64,000 nt of DNA from the IMG/VR virus record IMGVR_UViG_2728368993_000001, positions 50,818 through 114,817 of that record. One strand, 5' to 3'. A model generated the notes under the pieces. That model was not told the DNA's origin. It did not search any database and saw only the letters and a program-made list of their open reading frames with translations. Made by a program: the position numbers and the translations under genes. Origin of the DNA: a virus. Lineage: Duplodnaviria > Caudoviricetes. This document shows positions 41,471 to 49,079 of the stretch, piece by piece (the stretch's first letter is position 1; each line of letters begins with the position of its first letter).

Positions 41471-42814
41471 TTAGAGACCCAATAATTTCTTATCCATAGA
41501 GCCAAGTTTATTTTTGTTAAATAGAATCGTATTCACAAAATATCGATCACCATCAAGTTGGTGGTCATTTTGTTTAATCGGCTTATCTTCACCGCGATCA
41601 GCAGCCTTTTCATCCCAAATATAAGAAGAAAACTCACGGAAAGTTTCTACGCATCGATCATTGTATTTAATCAGACCATCATTGAGGGCATTACCAACAT
41701 TACGAATTCCATCGATGACCTCATTCTTTGCCTTAATCACTTTAAATCCGTTTTTCTTCAAAAGGGCAATAAAAGAAGCAGCCGATGGATCTACAATCAC
41801 ACCTTTAAGATTTTTTATATCATCTGTAAACGCCTGTAGATCCTCTAAATACTCTTGGTCTGTTTTTTGCTTACTCTTTTGTCGACCATCGTAATGGTAT
41901 TCCTTGTCCTTGTACCAAAGTTCATTGGAAAGACCCCACAATCCAAAGGTTGTCGGGTTCTGCGTACCATAATCAATACTGACATAGCACTTGGAGTATG
42001 GTCTTTCTTGTGTAGTCACGACATGCTTGTCCTTATTAAACATGTCATAAATAACGCCCTCAGCAAGCACCCATAAGCCTAGAATGAACCGCTGATAGAA
42101 GATGCCCTTATACATCCTCTTGTAACGCTCTTTGGTCTTAGCTGTCAGGGAAAGGTTATCATCCATCGTGAAATGGATATGTAGCATGTTCTTATCTTTT
42201 AGTTGGTCCAGATATTCCACCTTGAACCAATGATATGGACCAGCTGGGTTGCAGTTGAACCAAAACTTTGCCCCATCAACAGAACAACGAGCTGTTGCCT
42301 GATTAACAAATGATTGTGGCATCAATGCAACTTCGTCAAAGAACATGCCAGCAAGCGTAATCCCCTGTATAAGATCCTGTGAACCTTCATCCTTACCACC
42401 AAAAATATAAAAGTAATTCGTTTTACCTTTATAGGAGATGGTCAAGAAATTATCTGCTCGATGGTCCTTAACTCTATAACCTCGCGCCTTTAACATTCGC
42501 TTCAATGGAGTAATAACGTTACGTCGAAAAGAACCAATCGTCTTTCCGGCCATACCTAAGTTCACTTCATCGAACGTATCCATTCCCCACATAACGTAGG
42601 ATAGGGACATAACGACTGTTTTCCCAGCACGGACGGAACCATCACAAATAACCCCGTCTTTATCTTTGACAGGGGAACCATTTCGCCACCAGGTTAAAAC
42701 TTGCTTTTGCTTTACTGAGAAAGGTTTAAAGGTAAATGGTGCTGGCTTTTTCTTCTTAGCTGGCTTACTCGTCAGGAAAGCAAACGACTTAGCTTCAATC
42801 TTCGTTTGTGTCAT
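41471..42814 (-). CDS. Terminase large subunit (PBSX family)
   Basis: DGSVRAGKT, FFDEVAL, IDYGTQNP, DHQLD. Confidence 0.96.
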   Translation of the reverse strand: MTQTKIEAKSFAFLTSKPAKKKKPAPFTFKPFSVKQKQVLTWWRNGSPVKDKDGVICDGSVRAGKTVVMSLSYVMWGMDTFDEVNLGMAGKTIGSFRRNVITPLKRMLKARGYRVKDHRADNFLTISYKGKTNYFYIFGGKDEGSQDLIQGITLAGMFFDEVALMPQSFVNQATARCSVDGAKFWFNCNPAGPYHWFKVEYLDQLKDKNMLHIHFTMDDNLSLTAKTKERYKRMYKGIFYQRFILGLWVLAEGVIYDMFNKDKHVVTTQERPYSKCYVSIDYGTQNPTTFGLWGLSNELWYKDKEYHYDGRQKSKQKTDQEYLEDLQAFTDDIKNLKGVIVDPSAASFIALLKKNGFKVIKAKNEVIDGIRNVGNALNDGLIKYNDRCVETFREFSSYIWDEKAADRGEDKPIKQNDHQLDGDRYFVNTILFNKNKLGSMDKKLLGL

Positions 42815-43682
42815 TATTCCACACCTCCGAAGTTGTAGCATCTAAAGCGGCTTCAAAACCATCATCCTCATATTCTTCTTCTTCATTCGCTCCAAAGACT
42901 TTATGATGAGAAATTTTAAGTTTCTCTTCCTCAACTTGACGCTTGAATTTGTCTGGGAACAAGTCGAAGTATAAGGACAATTTATCCAAGGCCTTCATCT
43001 TGTCAGCAAGCTTAACCGATATACCGTCTTTGCCCTTTTTAACTTCTGTAATTAGAGTCCCATCAACTTCATTGGCATTCTTGAAATCAACATAGTTGTA
43101 GCTATACATCACAGGTTCGCCGTTTTCATCTAATATAGGTTCGCCAGTTAATGCATTGACTTCCGGCTGTTCCTTTTGCCCAAAATCAACAAAGTCTGTA
43201 ATGTCAGCAAATGCTATCTTTACCCACTTATTTAGAACGTCTTGAGCATCAATAAACAGATTTCCTGTCATTTCTTTCTTCATTCGCTGAATAAACTCTT
43301 TCACCCTAACATTCCCTAACAGCCTTGGACCTTGCACATGAGCTGTATCTAGAGAATACCCAGCCTTAATTGCTGATTGAGTAGCATTGAATGACTTAAC
43401 GTAATGAAAACAAAAAAGCCTTTGTTTATCAGTAAGTCTATCTGAATCAAGCTCATCTTCTTTTATTATTTCTGGCTCGCTTTGTGGGGATGCATCCTTC
43501 TTTTTTAGGGTTGCAACCTTTTGATTTTTGGTTGCATCCTTTTTCGTTGGATTCCTCGACCAACCTTCACGGCTTTTTCTGCTTTTCAAGGTACCAATTT
43601 TCACATCATGCTTATCAGCAAGAGCCTGCAAAGTAATCTTAGAAGTTTCATATTCATTTCTTATTTCATCCCAATTAGGCAT
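42795..43682 (-). CDS. Terminase small subunit
   Basis: N-terminal HTH, LTDKQRLF, NATQSAIKAGYS, KLADKMKAL. Confidence 0.93.
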   Translation of the reverse strand: MPNWDEIRNEYETSKITLQALADKHDVKIGTLKSRKSREGWSRNPTKKDATKNQKVATLKKKDASPQSEPEIIKEDELDSDRLTDKQRLFCFHYVKSFNATQSAIKAGYSLDTAHVQGPRLLGNVRVKEFIQRMKKEMTGNLFIDAQDVLNKWVKIAFADITDFVDFGQKEQPEVNALTGEPILDENGEPVMYSYNYVDFKNANEVDGTLITEVKKGKDGISVKLADKMKALDKLSLYFDLFPDKFKRQVEEEKLKISHHKVFGANEEEEYEDDGFEAALDATTSEVWNNDTNED

Positions 43683-43754: not shown

Positions 43755-44261
43755 TTATTCTTGAATTTCCTGTTTAGTATCGCCATTTTGCAATTCTGTT
43801 TCCTTCACTTTCACAGAATCCATTATATTGTCTAAAAAGGAATCGTATCTATTCTTAAACTCTTCTAATTTTTCAGCAGTAGGATTCTGATTGCTTTCTA
43901 GATAAAATTGTACATCTAAAAGCAGCCTGGTTACGAGTCCAACTCGAATCGCTATTTTTTTATCACGAGTAGTTAAGTTTAAAAATTGATCCATCGTAGT
44001 TAGAACAGTAAGAATTCCACTAAGTATTAAAGCCAACGAAGGCCCAAAGTTATTTATTTTCAAACCTAATATCACTGTTATTGTTGATGAGATTCCAACT
44101 ATTGTTATTTTCATCCAAAAAGCTTTCCTTTTAGCAACCTCGTGACTTTTACTAAGCGATTCCATATTGCTATTTAGTAATTTAATTAAAAAAAGAAAAT
44201 TTTTTACAACTTGCAAATCTGTCAAAATATCACCTTCTTTAATATTTTTGTCATTAATCAT
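43755..44261 (-). CDS. SLATT/DUF4231-like two-TM protein
   Basis: Helix - TM hairpin (ITIVGISSTITVILG...ALILSGILTVL) - helix. Confidence 0.7.
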   Translation of the reverse strand: MINDKNIKEGDILTDLQVVKNFLFLIKLLNSNMESLSKSHEVAKRKAFWMKITIVGISSTITVILGLKINNFGPSLALILSGILTVLTTMDQFLNLTTRDKKIAIRVGLVTRLLLDVQFYLESNQNPTAEKLEEFKNRYDSFLDNIMDSVKVKETELQNGDTKQEIQE

Positions 44262-44320
44262 ATTCTAATGTTAGAAAGATTTCTATTGTACTCCATTTGG
44301 ATACAATCATTGATCTATAT

Positions 44321-44353
44321 TTGAAAGGCACCCATTAAATGAGTGCCTTTCAA
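44321..44353. terminator. Hairpin after micropeptide A
   Basis: TTGAAAGGCAC...GTGCCTTTCAA. Confidence 0.8.
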
Positions 44354-44362
44354 ACTATAAGA

Positions 44363-44458
44363 TTATGGGCGAACAATACCTTGATATAAAACAGGATATC
44401 CGCCTGTACCTGGATCACCTTGCAACATTGGGCTTCCACCACTTCCTGGAACTTTCAT
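44363..44458 (-). CDS. 31-aa micropeptide A (not in ORF track)
   Basis: MKVPGSGGSPMLQGDPGTGGYPVLYQGIVRP; AAGGAGG RBS; paralogue at 46899. Confidence 0.82.
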   Translation of the reverse strand: MKVPGSGGSPMLQGDPGTGGYPVLYQGIVRP

Positions 44459-44504
44459 TTTACACACCCTCCTTCTAATAGTAGTGATGAATATGAGCTA
44501 ACTA

Positions 44505-44753
44505 TCACTTTTTTATTGTTATTTTTTTATAATCTACATCAAATGTATTTGGGTAGCCACATTCATCACGAGGACAATATGCATATACATTAATTGGTGT
44601 TCTATCTTCATTTCTCGTATTAGGACTAACCGCAACTTTGTTTTTAGGTAAAACATGTACAGTTAATACTCCACTATAGTGTTGTGGCACTTGATAATAC
44701 CATTCAAAATCTTTATCACAATCCTGACAATTATGCTTGCCTTCAATTAACAC
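44505..44753 (-). CDS. Zinc-ribbon protein
   Basis: CQDC...CPRDEC. Confidence 0.75.
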   Translation of the reverse strand: MLIEGKHNCQDCDKDFEWYYQVPQHYSGVLTVHVLPKNKVAVSPNTRNEDRTPINVYAYCPRDECGYPNTFDVDYKKITIKK

Positions 44754-44981
44754 TTCTCACCACCCTTTTGCCATATAATTATCAGCGACAGAAAGTTCAT
44801 GTACAATCTCTATCGTTCGACAAAACATGACAATTCATCCATAAACAAAGACGACATTCCCAACCTGATCACCTTCTTTCTCCATAATAAAAGCACCCAC
44901 CTAGGTGAGCGCCGAATTTAGTTCGTTTATCTTTCTTCTTAATTTCCCATCCTACAAAAAAAGAACTGCTTTTTTTAAAAA

Positions 44982-45752
44982 TTAATTCTTCTTCATTTTT
45001 TCAAAATCACCAGATTTAACCAGAATCGCTACTTTCCGACCAGATGAAAAGACTTTTGTACTAATTTTCATAGCACCGATTCTTCTGAATTTCTTTATTG
45101 CTTGTTCAACACTATCCTCTGTAGCATGAAGATTATTATCAACTAAATATTTTTTGAAATTTTTTCTAACGAATGATGATCCCATTTCTAAATCGCTTAA
45201 GTATTCAGCTAACGCAGCCTCTATTTCATTATCAATGCGGAACATGGTATCCTCAAACTTGCTTATGCCTTTATTTATTTCCTTCTTAAATTCTTGTTCA
45301 ATAGCTGCTTCGACATCTGGGGTTATCTTTATTGATTTTTTATCAAGAATCTTTGAAATGTCAATATTCCCCACTTCCTCTTTAAGGTTTGAAATTGCCT
45401 CTATAATTGTTGTTGTATCAGTTTTAGTATGAGTTTTAAGCTCCGACAATTCATCCTTTATATCACTTAAAGAATCTGTTACTTTGTTAAGTTCGTTAAT
45501 TTTGTTAGTTACATCTATTAATGCTTGATTTATTAACCTGCTTTGGCTAGATGAATCTATTGATTGAACGAAAGAATAAATAATCGCAACCCCAGCAAGA
45601 ATTAATGAGGCTATTCCTACCGCAAAAGAAATCTTATCCAGTAACACATCTGTTGTTTGTATTCTTATGGTCCAACTTAAAATAATGATAAAAAGTAAGA
45701 ATCCAATCCAATAAACAAAGTCCCTATTTGTAAATAACTTTTTCTTTTCCAT
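44982..45752 (-). CDS. Two-TM plus coiled-coil moron protein
   Basis: Hydrophobic N-terminal helices, then heptads. Confidence 0.78.
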   Translation of the reverse strand: MEKKKLFTNRDFVYWIGFLLFIIILSWTIRIQTTDVLLDKISFAVGIASLILAGVAIIYSFVQSIDSSSQSRLINQALIDVTNKINELNKVTDSLSDIKDELSELKTHTKTDTTTIIEAISNLKEEVGNIDISKILDKKSIKITPDVEAAIEQEFKKEINKGISKFEDTMFRIDNEIEAALAEYLSDLEMGSSFVRKNFKKYLVDNNLHATEDSVEQAIKKFRRIGAMKISTKVFSSGRKVAILVKSGDFEKMKKN

Positions 45753-45847
45753 ATGTCCAACTCCCCTCATTTACCTATTTCGGTAAAGAGAAGCTTTTTT
45801 TTAATAAATTCGTTCGACAAATCATGCAAAAGAAAAAGCACCCGATA

Positions 45848-46399
45848 TTATTCGGATGCTCCAGAGACTTTATTTAATTCATTTTTAAGAAGTTCATTAT
45901 AGCCTTCCTGTTCTGCAATTTCATACAATAATGTTATTCTCTGTTTCAACAACTCTTCACAATCAACCGATCTTTCCAAACTATCATTTCTTATTACTTC
46001 AAAAAAGCCCTTATATTCATTATTGATTATTTTTCCAGCAATATCCCAAGCATTCTTTTCCGCTAAAATTCTATTATATTTAATTGTATCTAGAATCTTT
46101 TCATCATAACCAGTTTTTATTAACAAATCGTAACAGGTAGATATTTCACGACTTATCTTATCTAAGTCTTTATCTATCGCATGCCCTAATTCATGACATA
46201 GTACAATTTCAGCATACACATTCAATGGTAAATCATAATATCTAGAACCACCAGTCAATGTATCAATATTTACTTCAATGGATTTCCTTATTGGATCATA
46301 ATTCATCTCTACAGATTCGTTATTTGTAAGACATAAATCCGCATCAATATTATGACTATCAACCTTTTCTTTGAGGATATTCATTAAATTTTTTATCAA
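45848..46399 (-). CDS. HEXXH zinc metallopeptidase-like protein
   Basis: LCHELGHA...EKNAW. Confidence 0.78.
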   Translation of the reverse strand: MIKNLMNILKEKVDSHNIDADLCLTNNESVEMNYDPIRKSIEVNIDTLTGGSRYYDLPLNVYAEIVLCHELGHAIDKDLDKISREISTCYDLLIKTGYDEKILDTIKYNRILAEKNAWDIAGKIINNEYKGFFEVIRNDSLERSVDCEELLKQRITLLYEIAEQEGYNELLKNELNKVSGASE

Positions 46400-46500
46400 T
46401 ACCCACTCCTCACCAAATATTTTCCTTCACATATGTAATTTGACAAATAGTTACTATTCCCCTGCTTTTCTTACAAATATTTGATTGAGTACTTAGCTCT

Positions 46501-46794
46501 TTATTGTATATTTGAATATGCCTGTTTATCTAACTCAAATACCGCATTGTCTTGAGCTTCTTCTAATGTATCGCCAATACCAACAGCCAAGTAATCCCTA
46601 CCGATGATTGCAGTACTATCTTCATTTTCATCATATAAATTTAAATACACTTCCACACGATCTGCGAAGAACAGAAAAATGAAATCAACAGCATCTTTAT
46701 GCTCGTTAAACATAATACCTGTCTCATTATCTAAAGCTCCCAATCCAAAACTTTCGTCTTCCACTAACTTTTCTAATTGTGTTTTCATGGTCAT
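46501..46794 (-). CDS. Acidic hypothetical moron protein
   Basis: AGGAGG RBS; SigH-like promoter at 46813-46840. Confidence 0.75.
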   Translation of the reverse strand: MTMKTQLEKLVEDESFGLGALDNETGIMFNEHKDAVDFIFLFFADRVEVYLNLYDENEDSTAIIGRDYLAVGIGDTLEEAQDNAVFELDKQAYSNIQ

Positions 46795-46898
46795 CCTCCT
46801 TCTATAAAGAAAGATTCAACATGCAGGCAAATAGTCCTTGTAAAAGTTTTGTAAAATAAAAAGACACCCAATGATTGAGTGCCCACCAAATTATAGTA

Positions 46899-47024
46899 TT
46901 ATGGACGAATAATACCTTGTTTCATAATGGCTCCTCCACCAACACCCGGATCTAACAATACGTTTCCTCCGATTGGTGGTTTTGTATAACCGCCTACTTT
47001 CTCACTCTTCACGACTCTTTTCAT
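46899..47024 (-). CDS. 41-aa micropeptide B (not in ORF track)
   Basis: MKRVVKSEKVGGYTKPPIGGNVLLDPGVGGGAIMKQGIIRP; AAAGGAGG RBS; own promoter and terminator. Confidence 0.85.
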   Translation of the reverse strand: MKRVVKSEKVGGYTKPPIGGNVLLDPGVGGGAIMKQGIIRP

Positions 47025-47048
47025 ACTATCCCTCCTTTCAAATATCTC

Positions 47049-47076
47049 ATTTCGACAAAAGAAGATAAATTCCTGC
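47049..47076 (-). promoter_or_regulatory. SigH promoter of micropeptide B
   Basis: GCAGGAATTT...TGTCGAAAT. Confidence 0.75.
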
Positions 47077-47477: not shown

Positions 47478-48380
47478 TCACCCAACTCCTCCTGTATTTT
47501 GAATAAACTGTCTTAAAGTTAAAGTGTTTAGCATTTCATTCGTTTTGGCGTAATCAAGATTTAAAAAATAGCAGCAGTAATCTTCAGCGTTCTTAATAAC
47601 AAATGTAACGGATTCTCCACTTAAGTTAACTGGAGAGAGAATTTTATTTGCTTTTTGCTCTAATTCATAAGGAGTAAATATGGGTTCCATTCTAGTTAAG
47701 TACCTTAAAAATAAATCATGTTTCATTTCTTTTTTTAAAAATTCATCTACATATTTAATTATGTTCACAATAGTCTTCCTCATATCTTTTGGAGTTGAAG
47801 TATTCTTAGATAGACGCCTTAATCTTTTGTATATTTTATATTCTATAGGTTGAAATTGACTTATTTCTTGTTCAATTCCTTCTACTAAAGCAGGGGTTCT
47901 TACATACGCTTCAAAGATTCGAAGAGCTCTATCTAACTTGTTTGGGCCTGTATATTCTGTATGTATTTTTTCTTTAACACTTTCAAAAAACTCATTATCT
48001 AATATACTTTGACTAAATTTTTCTTGCTTCATCATCCGATAAATTTGTGTATGTTGAACCGTATTCTCTATATTCGTCAATGCACTATCTGGTCCTGAAC
48101 CATAATTAAAATCATATAGATAAATTTTTGGGAAACCTTGGAGGAATAATTTCGCATGAAATATTTCATGAACAAACGTTTCAATTAATTGTTTGCAATC
48201 AGGTCTTAGATAAACTTTTAATATTTTATTCCGTTTTTCCACTTCCTGCGCACCGTATGCCTCATCAAACAAAGGATTTGATTCTTCAAGTTTATGAATT
48301 TCTATCGTGTATCCTTGTTGAGACGCAAGACGTTTCACCTCATTATAAATTGGTATTTCTTCTGGATTTATCATTTTCAT
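47478..48380 (-). CDS. HEXXH metallopeptidase-like protein
   Basis: FVHEIFHAKLFLQGFP...ENTVQH. Confidence 0.78.
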   Translation of the reverse strand: MKMINPEEIPIYNEVKRLASQQGYTIEIHKLEESNPLFDEAYGAQEVEKRNKILKVYLRPDCKQLIETFVHEIFHAKLFLQGFPKIYLYDFNYGSGPDSALTNIENTVQHTQIYRMMKQEKFSQSILDNEFFESVKEKIHTEYTGPNKLDRALRIFEAYVRTPALVEGIEQEISQFQPIEYKIYKRLRRLSKNTSTPKDMRKTIVNIIKYVDEFLKKEMKHDLFLRYLTRMEPIFTPYELEQKANKILSPVNLSGESVTFVIKNAEDYCCYFLNLDYAKTNEMLNTLTLRQFIQNTGGVG

Positions 48381-48398: not shown

Positions 48399-48426
48399 AT
48401 TTCGACAAAAGGGGAGAATTTCCTTC
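48399..48426 (-). promoter_or_regulatory. SigH promoter
   Basis: GAAGGAAATT...TGTCGAAAT. Confidence 0.75.
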
Positions 48427-48515: not shown

Positions 48516-48974
48516 CTAGCACGCGGATTTTGATTTCGATAAATCCGTAACCTCTGTAACATTTGGAACATATACACTAATTTGGTTAACTATGGAATCC
48601 TTAATACGTCCTATATGAGAATGAGATAACCCCATATGAAGAGCAATCCAACGATAAGACTTGCCTTCTAATATCCAATGCAGAACTTCAAAATCACGAT
48701 CATCTTGAATAATAGCCATACGGTCCTGTATAATTTGCACCTTTTCCTCATATTGAGCAATCTTCTTATACCGTTTTTCTCTACGTACAACCTCTTTGAA
48801 AATAGGATCACTGGTTACGCCTTGTGGCTTCGGGAGTGTGGCTTCAATACCATATTGAACAGTAAGTCCTTCACCCGCATCCTGCATTGAATCTCGTAAT
48901 ATCTTTATGGAGTTCATCATCCAATGGTAGTCTTTCAAAATACTCTCAATCTGTTTGCTAGCAGTTTCTTTCAA
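48516..48974 (-). CDS. Late transcriptional activator (ArpU/RinA-like, sigma region-4 HTH)
   Basis: LKDYHWM, QYGIEATLPK, LEGKSYRWIALHMGLS; precedes the packaging genes. Confidence 0.8.
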   Translation of the reverse strand: MKETASKQIESILKDYHWMMNSIKILRDSMQDAGEGLTVQYGIEATLPKPQGVTSDPIFKEVVRREKRYKKIAQYEEKVQIIQDRMAIIQDDRDFEVLHWILEGKSYRWIALHMGLSHSHIGRIKDSIVNQISVYVPNVTEVTDLSKSKSAC

Positions 48975-49079
48975 TTTAATCGCTCCTTTATTAATCAAAA
49001 TAAAAAAGGACACCAAACAAACGGCGTTAACCGTTCATTCAGTGTCCTCCAGAGGGCTGGTAGAATACTCAATCTTTCT

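What the first reader, a model, noticed from the sequence alone, without database searches (positions are those of the whole stretch)
44363..47076. Two leaderless paralogous micropeptides resembling strings of arbitrium-type signals
Seen: unannotated ORFs 44363-44458 (MKVPGSGG-SPMLQG-DPGTGG-YPVLY-QGIVRP) and 46899-47024 (...EKVGG-YT-KPPIGG-NVLL-DPGVGGG-AIMK-QGIIRP). Both have strong AAGGAGG RBSs and related terminators (CACCCA...TGAGTGCC); B has a consensus SigH promoter. Conservation is confined to short Pro/Gly motifs separated by variable spacers. Known: arbitrium signals are 6-10-aa Gly-rich peptides (SAIRGA, GMPRGA; from memory also GIVRGA and PGG-containing types) cut from signal-peptide-bearing AimP encoded next to the TPR receptor AimR. 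Seen: neither peptide has a hydrophobic signal sequence, no TPR/RRNPP gene is in the window, and the phage has its own ImmR/ImmA switch. Inference: cytoplasmic multi-signal mimics that jam the receptors of other phages or conjugative elements, e.g. forcing lysogeny. A multi-core peptide precursor of another kind is the alternative.
Basis: partly seen in the sequence, partly recalled or inferred. Interest (0 to 1): 0.85.

Follow-up and report, generated by a model that had tools for sequence, protein, structure and literature searches.

The report
Export-less genes stringing rival phage signals
A dormant virus in a soil Peribacillus carries two tiny genes whose products are chains of the short "go dormant" words that other viruses of these bacteria secrete, but with no export tag and no receptor of their own, so they probably serve to feed rivals a false message.

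Summary
Two paralogous minus-strand micro-ORFs, A (31 aa) and B (41 aa), each have a strong ribosome-binding site and a related terminator.

They lie in the cargo zone between a sigma-like late regulator and the terminase of a prophage. Relatives turned up in only one other species of the genus, which has a short and a long form, and on one short contig.

New here: I collected 59 candidate AimP propeptides beside 86 AimR receptor genes of the same genus and order. B contains SEKVGG, the exact C-terminal signal of one AimP class. A contains DPGTGG, the core of a second, widespread class. Of 480 small window ORFs, only A and B share a 6-mer with AimP ends.

The peptides lack a hydrophobic leader and a predicted fold. 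The prophage has no AimR, and the genome holds only a truncated one.

Best reading (about 0.55): receptor-less, multi-specificity forged arbitrium signals aimed at rival phages' AimR. Binding, processing, route and expression are untested. The terminal GI(I/V)RP and PPIGG modules have no AimP counterpart.

The scan reported analogous genes before on other DNA (Bacillus, Brevibacillus). My searches found no paper describing such genes.

The parts
46899..47024 (-). Micropeptide B, 41 aa plus stop. Modules in order: N-terminal basic stretch, SEKVGG, YTK, PPIGG, NVLL, DPGVGG, GAIMKQ, GIIRP.
   Evidence: ORF. Paralogue of A. Orthologue in G031. Shares the 6-mer SEKVGG with AimP ends.
47030..47038 (-). 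Ribosome-binding site of B (AAAGGAGGG), 5 nt before the ATG
   Evidence: Read. Identical in the G031 orthologue.
47050..47074 (-). Sigma-H-like promoter of B (AGGAATT-N11-GTCGAAA). The same motif stands at 48400-48424 before the 300-aa gene.
   Evidence: Partly conserved in G031. The consensus is recalled, not tested.
46862..46884 (-). Intrinsic terminator of B
   Evidence: Stop codon plus 50 nt downstream is 49/53 identical to G031.
44363..44458 (-). Micropeptide A, 31 aa plus stop. Modules in order: MK, VPGSGG, SPMLQG, DPGTGG, YPVLYQ, GIVRP.
   Evidence: ORF. Orthologue in G031. Shares the 6-mer DPGTGG with AimP ends.
44467..44475 (-). Ribosome-binding site of A (GAAGGAGGG), 8 nt before the ATG
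   Evidence: Read
44321..44355 (-). 17-bp hairpin after A (terminator; weak U tract in the window, U7 in G031)
   Evidence: -25.3 kcal/mol, z = -8.0. Alignment.
44505..44753 (-). 82-aa Cys-rich ORF directly upstream of A with no terminator between, so probably co-transcribed. TTGTCGAA promoter-like motif at 44816-44823.
   Evidence: No family match.

Best explanation
A and B are translated, unstructured polypeptides that work as forged arbitrium signals. Each is a chain of short cores copied from, or converged on, the mature ends of AimP propeptides of at least two specificity classes: the xKVGG class and the DPGxGG class. The cores are joined by hydrophobic linkers like those of natural multi-copy AimPs. 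There is no Sec leader and no cognate AimR.

Proposed action: after proteolytic release of the cores, they occupy the AimR receptors of rival arbitrium phages or elements. Those rivals then fail to switch on their lysis-promoting output, so they lysogenise or stay dormant. That spares the cell the resident prophage lives in, or the hosts its progeny need.

Shown here: the ORFs and their signals, the conservation, the core matches, and the lack of leader, fold and receptor.

Inferred: translation, proteolytic release, AimR binding, the effect on rivals, and the route. The route could be action inside the lysogen on a superinfecting phage. It could also be release at lysis, followed by extracellular maturation and uptake by neighbouring cells.
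For: 1. Core matches.
- 59 AimP candidates were taken from 86 AimR loci.
- B holds SEKVGG. This is the C-terminal signal present twice in the AimP of L031. It appears as AEKVGG in L027, from a genome of the same genus.
- A, both G031 forms and P0004 hold DPGTGG, which is the AimP core in L042 and L083.
- The G031 long form shares the 7-mers LDPGTGG and DPGTGGH with AimP ends.

2. Controls.
- Composition-preserving shuffles reach the observed number of shared 5-mers in 1/2000 (A), 57/2000 (B) and 0-1/2000 (the other three peptides).
- Shared 5- and 6-mers with the leader/pro part of the AimPs are 0 for every peptide, and shared 4-mers are 0 or 1.
- Of 480 window ORFs of 25-60 aa, only A and B share a 6-mer with an AimP end.

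3. Architecture.
- Natural AimPs with two or more core copies and short hydrophobic linkers exist (L031, L032, L034, L057, L082, L101, L106).
- P0004 ends exactly on a GNKVGG core.

4. No leader and no fold. Maximum Kyte-Doolittle(11) is 0.4-1.6 against 2.8 for an AimP. AlphaFold2 mean pLDDT is 48.6 with no secondary structure.

5. No receptor. AimR is absent from the window, truncated elsewhere in G000 and not found in G031. It is intact in 4 of 46 other genomes of the genus.

6. Coding signature. dN/dS is 0.44 and 0.55, there is an in-frame 33-nt indel, and cores are swapped between positions while linkers stay.

7. Setting. The genes sit in a cargo zone of self-contained cassettes next to defence-like genes.

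8. Logic in print.
- A lysogen that emits a cross-talking AimP raises lysogeny of a superinfecting phage and benefits from it (10.1101/2025.10.13.681967, sections 9 and 10 read).
- Cross-species AimP crosstalk has been shown (PMC13220667, passages).
- Tandem Phr propeptides are cut into several active pheromones (PMC11343458, abstract and section 9).
Against: - There is no export signal, and the cores are internal. AimR-type pockets are known to hold short free peptides (passages of PMC13220667), so proteolysis must be assumed, and none was shown.
- A and B end in GI(I/V)RP. That module has no counterpart: 0 of 59 AimP ends finish in RP. PPIGG also has no exact counterpart; only 3 of 59 ends hold IGG at all.
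- The cores are Gly/Pro-rich, which raises chance matches. B's 5-mer excess is only moderately rare in shuffles (57/2000).
- The AimP candidates were picked by a simple rule: the first downstream ORF with a run of 13 or more small or hydrophobic residues. A few are plainly false, for example L090, L112 and L114.
- The AimR loci come from related genomes and are not independent.
- The family is tiny: two genomes and one 1284-base contig. Comparative power is therefore low.
- There is no expression evidence of any kind.
- The region from the stop codon through the terminator is at least as conserved as the coding part: 83% and 92% against 74% and 79%. This model does not explain that.
Confidence: 0.55

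Rival explanations
1. The peptides are the prophage's own signals for a receptor that is not an AimR. One candidate is one of the unknown neighbouring proteins, such as the 300-aa HExxH protein with a helical C-terminal part at 47478-48380.
For: The 300-aa gene carries the same promoter motif as B and stands two genes upstream. The Atlas model of it aligns in part with TPR proteins (TM 0.59) and with M78/IrrE-type peptidases. A 183-aa HExxH-like protein follows the long form in both genomes (E = 1e-5).
Against: No RRNPP or AimR family match in the window. The G031 loci do not hold the 300-aa gene among the ORFs listed. I did not search for it there directly. The G031 copy of the 183-aa protein has Arg where the window protein has the two His of HExxH. 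One peptide carrying cores of two different AimP classes is hard to reconcile with a single private receptor.
Confidence: 0.12
2. They are small Pro/Gly-rich proteins with an unrelated job, for example an inhibitor of a host or phage protein. The likeness to AimP ends would then be convergence or low-complexity chance.
For: Composition is 30-42% Gly plus Pro. PPIGG and GI(I/V)RP have no AimP counterpart. No family, fold or context points to a function.
Against: There are exact 6- and 7-mer matches confined to the signal end of AimPs, none to their leaders, and far above composition-preserving shuffles. Two separate AimP classes are matched within one peptide. The linkers are like those of multi-copy AimPs. 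P0004 ends on a core.
Confidence: 0.15
3. They are decaying remnants of aimP genes that lost the leader and the receptor, with no present function.
For: The host genome holds a broken AimR elsewhere, which shows that arbitrium modules do decay in this lineage.
Against: Strong ribosome-binding sites, promoter and terminator are kept in two species and two paralogues. dN/dS is below 1. The indel is in frame. Cores were exchanged rather than lost. The genes are not beside the AimR remnant, which lies about 28 kb outside the window.
Confidence: 0.08
4. They are regulatory leader peptides. A ribosome pausing at the Arg-Pro-stop end, 11-14 nt before the hairpin, would modulate termination and so read-through into the next genes.
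For: All four full-length members end in Arg-Pro-stop. The stretch from the stop codon through the hairpin is the best conserved part of the cassette: 83% and 92% identity against 74% and 79% in the coding part. That C-terminal Pro slows termination is recalled knowledge (TnaC, SsrA-tagging studies) and was not tested here.
Against: Conservation reaches the N-terminus of the long form, far beyond what the exit tunnel would read. P0004 does not end in Arg-Pro. The genes downstream differ between genomes. This model does not explain the AimP core matches.
Confidence: 0.06
5. They are not translated. The conserved element would be an RNA or a terminator module, and the ORFs are incidental.
For: The terminator region is highly conserved. 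The antisense frame is also open in 3 of the 4 members. There is no expression evidence.
Against: Ribosome-binding sites sit at ideal spacing in all four members. Synonymous changes occur at conserved residues and dN is below dS. The 33-nt indel is in frame. Protein-level motifs are shared between paralogues that differ widely in DNA. There is no Rfam match.
Confidence: 0.04

Closest known systems
AimP, the arbitrium propeptide of Bacillales phages (with its receptor AimR, NCBIfam NF038310)
   Same: The same short cores as the mature C-terminal signals: the xKVGG class in the same genus and in four IMG/VR contigs, and the DPGxGx class across the order. A DPG-type end is also printed for phage B83 (PMC6669507, passages). 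Hydrophobic residues precede the DPG core, as in AimP pro-regions.
   Different: No Sec leader. Not next to an aimR. Several cores of different classes sit in one product. A and B end in a module (GI(I/V)RP) not seen at any of 59 AimP ends. No NCBIfam, Pfam or PHROG family matched either peptide at E <= 10.
Tandemly duplicated RRNPP propeptides (Phr of phages phi3T and phi105; PMC11343458, abstract and section 9 read)
   Same: More than one pheromone core in one precursor, separated by linkers that proteases cut. I also saw natural multi-copy AimPs here (L031, L032, L034, L057, L082, L101, L106).
   Different: Those precursors are secreted, sit beside their own receptor, and repeat variants of one specificity. 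A and B are leaderless and receptor-less and mix classes.
Arbitrium crosstalk and manipulation by canonical secreted AimP (PMC13220667, passages; 10.1101/2025.10.13.681967, abstract and sections 9-10)
   Same: The proposed benefit is the same: a signal-emitting prophage drives a receiving phage into lysogeny.
   Different: In print the emitter uses its own complete AimR-AimP system and the crosstalk is a by-product of similar signals. Here the genes would be dedicated signal-only devices in a phage that has no arbitrium system.
Analogous mini-genes noted earlier by this scan in Bacillus and Brevibacillus prophages (e1-6204159, e1-6227494, e1-5867899; AI notes, not checked by me)
   Same: Leaderless, receptor-less micro-ORFs built from other phages' signal words.
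   Different: Different genera and different core classes (xxxRGA hexapeptides there; KVGG and DPGxGG here). I found no sequence relationship: the look-up by sequence returned only this genome.

Membership tests
AimP (arbitrium propeptide) | N-terminal Sec-type signal peptide | tested here: not met
   Maximum Kyte-Doolittle(11) is 0.4-1.6 in the five peptides against 2.8 in the L027 AimP. None has the run of 13 or more small or hydrophobic residues used to pick AimPs.
AimP (arbitrium propeptide) | Encoded directly downstream of its receptor gene aimR | tested here: not met
   NF038310 has no match in the window. The only match in G000 is a truncated copy about 28 kb outside it. There is none in G031.
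AimP (arbitrium propeptide) | Mature signal is the extreme C-terminus of the precursor | tested here: not met
   In A, B and both G031 forms the matching cores are internal and the C-terminus is GI(I/V)RP or GVVRP. 0 of 59 AimP ends finish in RP. Only P0004 ends on a core.
AimP (arbitrium propeptide) | Core sequence of a class used by AimR-linked propeptides | tested here: met
   SEKVGG, NKVGG, DPGTGG, DPGTGGH and KDPGT are shared with AimP ends.
AimP (arbitrium propeptide) | Binds AimR and releases it from DNA | not testable with these tools
There is no bench data.
AimP (arbitrium propeptide) | Match to a curated family model | tested here: not met
   0 families in NCBIfam, Pfam and PHROGs at E <= 10.
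Tandem RRNPP propeptides (Phr3T/Phr105 type) | Several pheromone cores in one precursor | tested here: met
   Two to four cores per peptide.
Tandem RRNPP propeptides (Phr3T/Phr105 type) | Secreted and matured by extracellular proteases | tested here: inconclusive
   No leader, but the linkers resemble those of secreted multi-copy AimPs. Processing itself cannot be tested here.
Type I toxin-antitoxin peptide | Hydrophobic membrane-spanning toxin of 30-60 aa | tested here: not met
   No hydrophobic stretch. An antisense promoter-like site over the 3' end of B is only a 9/12 consensus match.
Ribosome-arrest leader peptides (TnaC/SecM type) | Conserved C-terminal arrest motif that controls a fixed downstream gene | tested here: inconclusive
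   Arg-Pro-stop is present in 4 of 5 members and the 3' region is conserved, but the downstream genes differ between genomes.

The most novel reading that the evidence does not exclude
Temperate phages of several Bacillales genera carry a dedicated class of weapon: export-less, receptor-less mini-genes that concatenate the private signals of several rival phage lineages. They would be made inside the lysogen, or spilled at lysis, and would switch off the rivals' AimR receptors. That imposes dormancy on superinfecting or neighbouring phages, which amounts to defence and competition by forged communication. The cores would evolve fast by swapping, while the linkers and the expression cassette stay fixed.
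Probability: 0.35. Interest if true: 0.9.

Novelty: new variant of a known kind. Interest (0 to 1): 0.8.

Why it matters
Arbitrium is the model for communication between viruses. Recent work shows that similar secreted signals let phages manipulate each other.

A gene that exists only to emit other phages' signals would show that deception has become a selected trait with its own genetic device. Such a gene has several specificities at once, no export tag and no receptor.

It would also add a new kind of prophage-encoded protection of the host: pacifying invaders instead of killing them or the cell. It would help explain why arbitrium specificities diversify so fast.

Finally, it gives a simple search rule for similar genes elsewhere: small leaderless ORFs that hold two or more AimP-end words.

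The peptides are short and the matching receptors are identified here, so the idea can be tested directly with synthetic peptides and reporter strains.

Tried and rejected
Family and homology searches
- Family libraries gave nothing for either peptide.
- The word-indexed protein search found only the window's own product.
- blastn of 3.7 kb against phages found nothing.
- tblastn of B against phages gave 6 Microbacterium phage hits at E >= 2, which I treat as noise.
- Profile search of 1.84 billion representatives gave 4 hits at E <= 0.001. They were A, B, P0004 and a 2656-aa protein matched only over profile positions 9-22, which I did not examine.
- Weak genome hits at E = 0.03-1 in G047, G052, G058, G218 and G379 were not examined.

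Pattern scans
- Genome contigs: 5 stretches, 1 real. Viral contigs: 1, the same sequence. Metagenomes: 3, all chance in GC-rich frames.
- A second pattern for the long form found 0 in viral contigs.
- The search for related loci could not use the short peptides.
- It found no viral relatives of the L042 and L028 receptors.

Other checks
- Rfam: only two sub-threshold ctRNA-like hits on other terminators.
- Sequencing runs: none was listed, and no RNA holder was listed.
- Spore-protein and RTX-repeat ideas were dropped. No family matches, the repeat period varies (8-12 residues), and the model shows no fold.
- Type I toxin idea dropped: the peptides are not hydrophobic.
- The promoter class stays open. 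The sigma-H consensus is recalled. The phage's own sigma-like regulator gives weak sub-threshold hits to sigma factors, including SigH region 4, so the cassettes could be late lytic genes instead.
- Literature searches for leaderless, orphan or tandem arbitrium signal genes found no such paper (and find in PMC13220667, PMC13389391 and PMC9765709). Stokar-Avihail et al. 2019 was not seen, only cited through PMC6669507.


Full report
**What is there**

Both ORFs lie on the minus strand.
- A is 44363-44458 and encodes 31 aa from the ATG.
- B is 46899-47024 and encodes 41 aa from the ATG.
- A has GAAGGAGGG 8 nt before its ATG. B has AAAGGAGGG 5 nt before its ATG.
- Each is followed within 14 nt by a stable hairpin: -25.3 and -12.2 kcal/mol, z = -8.0 and -3.6. 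B's is also listed by the terminator scan.
- The two products are paralogues: 13/25 identities, E = 7e-7. The shared parts are a DPGxGG motif and the C-terminal QGI(I/V)RP.
- B has its own promoter-like site, AGGAATT-N11-GTCGAAA, at 47050-47074. The same motif, with the same following bases, stands at 48400-48424 before a 300-aa gene.
- A follows an 82-aa Cys-rich ORF with no terminator between them.

**Setting**

All genes here run on the minus strand of a prophage.
- The small terminase ORF is at 42795-43682. I name it from its sequence, and no family search was run on it.
- A sigma-like regulator is at 48516-49016. It matches phrog_1058 at 1.9e-36 and phrog_36 'transcriptional regulator'. 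It also gives weak sub-threshold sigma-factor hits.
- The 4.7 kb between these two genes is a row of short cassettes, each ending in a terminator. The scan found 11 terminator-like sites against 1.9 expected.
- The products have no family match, with these partial exceptions:
  - a SLATT-like 168-aa membrane protein (E = 7e-7, below the curated cut-off);
  - a 69-aa membrane protein (phrog_23134);
  - a 300-aa HExxH protein that the Atlas places with 'IpaB/EvcA family' clusters.

**How wide is the family**

It is very narrow.
- The own genome has only A and B.
- Among 67 genomes of the family, only G031 has clear relatives, at E = 3.4e-13 and 1.9e-8.
  - One is a 52-aa long form with an extra PPIGG module.
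  - The other is a 31-aa short form.
- A sample of 401 genomes of the order gave nothing beyond two weak hits that I did not examine.
- A profile search of 1.84 billion representative proteins found A, B and one further 44-aa member, P0004. P0004 was seen once on a 1284-base contig. The search also returned a long protein matched over 14 profile positions only.
- A strict back-translated pattern found only the G031 short form in genome contigs. It found the same sequence in an IMG/VR provirus contig. Everything else was a chance hit in GC-rich frames.
- The named record returned places the genus as Peribacillus.

**Are they coding**

- dN/dS is 0.44 for A against the G031 short form and 0.55 for B against the long form. 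There are synonymous changes at conserved residues.
- The long form differs from B by an in-frame 33-nt insertion.
- The ribosome-binding sites are kept.
- DNA similarity between the genomes starts near the promoter or ribosome-binding site and stops after the terminator, so each gene travels as a small cassette.
- The stop codon plus the next 50 nt is 83% and 92% identical, against 74% and 79% for the coding parts. I have no firm explanation for this.
- Between orthologues the linkers (MLQG, VLL) and the end (GIVRP) stay the same while the cores change place or sequence. The first core of the G031 short form is the second core of A.

**The decisive comparison**

I searched the AimR family (NF038310).
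- In the own genome it matches only a truncated gene about 28 kb outside the window: 176 aa, model positions 8-164 of 365, followed by a fragment behind a stop.
- It is intact in 4 of 46 other genomes of the genus and was not found in G031.
- It is present in 87 of 401 sampled genomes of the order.
- Four IMG/VR contigs hold receptors 66-67% identical to the one in G030.

From 86 receptor loci I took the first downstream ORF of 30-90 aa with a leader-like hydrophobic run.
- Three duplicate loci (L063, L066, L068) were dropped first.
- 59 loci gave a candidate.
- A few candidates are clearly false (L090, L112, L114).

The candidate ends fall into classes.
- xKVGG class:
  - L027, of the same genus, ends in AEKVGG.
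  - L031 carries SEKVGG twice.
  - L032 and L034 carry SDKVGG twice.
  - L033 ends in ANKVGG.
- xxPGG class: L035-L038.
- DPGxGx class: 26 of 59 ends. Examples:
  - L042 ends in LDPGTGGSGG.
  - L083 ends in QDPGTGGH.
  - L028, of the same genus, ends in KKDPGTLG.
  - Many others end in DPGGGIG, DPGPGGG or DPGTGIG.
- A DPG-type end is also printed for the AimP of phage B83 (PMC6669507, passages).

How the micropeptides match these ends:
- B reads basic N-terminus, SEKVGG, YTK, PPIGG, NVLL, DPGVGG, GAIMKQ, GIIRP.
- A reads MK, VPGSGG, SPMLQG, DPGTGG, YPVLYQ, GIVRP.
- The G031 long form has GNKVGG and LDPGTGGH.
- P0004 has GNKVGG, TDPGTGG and a final GNKVGG at its very end.
- As in AimP pro-regions, hydrophobic residues precede the DPG core.
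- Several natural AimPs carry two or more core copies with short hydrophobic linkers.

**Controls**

- Composition-preserving shuffles of each micropeptide reach the observed number of AimP ends sharing a 5-mer in 1, 57, 0, 1 and 0 of 2000 trials, for A, B, G031 long, G031 short and P0004 respectively.
- Shared 5- and 6-mers with the leader/pro part of the same AimPs are 0 for every peptide, and shared 4-mers are 0 or 1.
- Of 480 ORFs of 25-60 aa on both strands of the window, 4 share a 5-mer with an AimP end. The only two that share a 6-mer are A and B.

Limits:
- The receptor loci are related to one another.
- The AimP picking rule is crude.
- The cores are Gly/Pro-rich.
- PPIGG and GI(I/V)RP have no counterpart: 0 of 59 ends finish in RP.
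- The likeness of the C-terminus to the published GIVRGA and GVVRGA signals (PMC13220667, passages) covers four residues only.

**What they lack**

- There is no hydrophobic leader. Maximum Kyte-Doolittle(11) is 0.4-1.6 against 2.8 in an AimP.
- There is no predicted fold. Mean pLDDT is 48.6 with no secondary structure.
- There is no receptor in either genome that carries them.
- There is no match to any RNA family.

**Reading**

The most economical explanation is that these are signal-only genes. They are chains of the private words of other arbitrium phages, including phages of the same genus, kept by a prophage that has no arbitrium system itself.

The benefit has been shown for canonical secreted signals. 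A lysogen emitting a cross-talking AimP raised polylysogeny of a superinfecting phage about tenfold. The authors argue that this protects the emitter (10.1101/2025.10.13.681967, sections 9 and 10).

The route is open.
- Acting inside the lysogen would bypass export and import, but it needs cytoplasmic cleavage or binding of internal cores.
- The AimP-like linkers fit release at lysis instead, followed by the usual extracellular maturation and uptake. The cassettes' position after the late regulator fits this too. So does the possibility that their promoters are read by the phage's own sigma-like protein.
- Extracellular proteolysis of tandem Phr propeptides into several active pheromones is documented (PMC11343458).

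I could not test expression, because no sequencing run was listed.

**Rivals**

The rivals are a private non-AimR receptor, an unrelated Pro/Gly-rich small protein, decaying aimP relics, an Arg-Pro-stop leader peptide controlling the adjacent terminator, and no translation at all. They are set out with their evidence in the rival list. The leader-peptide idea is the only one that would explain the very conserved stop-to-terminator stretch. It may apply in addition to the main reading rather than instead of it.

**Novelty**

- Earlier notes of this scan report analogous leaderless tandem-signal mini-genes in Bacillus and Brevibacillus prophages. I did not check them.
- The present case is a separate family with different core classes in a third genus, which suggests a recurrent strategy.
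- My paper searches found crosstalk and manipulation by complete arbitrium systems, and tandem secreted propeptides. They found no description of leaderless, receptor-less multi-signal genes.
- I class it as a new variant of a known kind.

Noticed in passing
outside the window: G000:C1:2071270-2071853 (L025:1328-2025, minus strand): A truncated AimR-type receptor gene: 176 aa covering model positions 8-164 of 365, then a 60-aa fragment behind a stop, with no AimP-like ORF after it. It lies about 28 kb before the window start.
   Followed up: partly
window 47478-48380 (-): A 300-aa protein with an HExxH motif and a helical C-terminal part. The Atlas places it with 'IpaB/EvcA family' clusters and gives partial structural likeness to TPR proteins and M78/IrrE peptidases. 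It has the same promoter motif as peptide B.
   Followed up: partly
window 48516-49016 (-): Sigma-like late regulator (phrog_1058, phrog_36) with weak sub-threshold hits to sigma factors, including SigH region 4. The sigma-H-like promoters of the cargo cassettes might be read by this phage protein rather than by host sigma-H.
   Followed up: no
window 43755-44261 (-) and 44982-45770 (-): Two membrane proteins of the cargo row give weak SLATT-domain hits. The 168-aa protein scores E = 7e-7, below the curated cut-off. This suggests pore-type defence effectors next to the micropeptides.
   Followed up: no
window 45848-46399 (-) and L014:8920-9465 (-): A 183-aa HExxH-like protein follows the long-form peptide in both genomes (30% identity over 82 residues, E = 1e-5). 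The G031 copy has Arg at both His positions of the motif.
   Followed up: partly
L015:8165-9040 (-): In G031 the short-form peptide lies in a prophage remnant beside an AbiC/AbiP-like abortive-infection protein (E = 1.6e-14 and 4.4e-12), between a sigma-like regulator and the holin/lysin genes.
   Followed up: no
L031, L032, L034, L057, L082, L101, L106 (ORF just after each AimR gene): Natural leader-bearing AimP candidates that carry two to four copies of their core separated by short linkers. Multi-copy arbitrium propeptides seem common in this order.
   Followed up: partly
window 44310-44366 and 46850-46902 (-); L010:1585-1645; L005:1385-1441: The stretch from the stop codon through the terminator (CCATAAT-NN-TATARTWTG-hairpin) is better conserved than the coding sequence, both between species and between the two paralogues. 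It is unexplained.
   Followed up: partly
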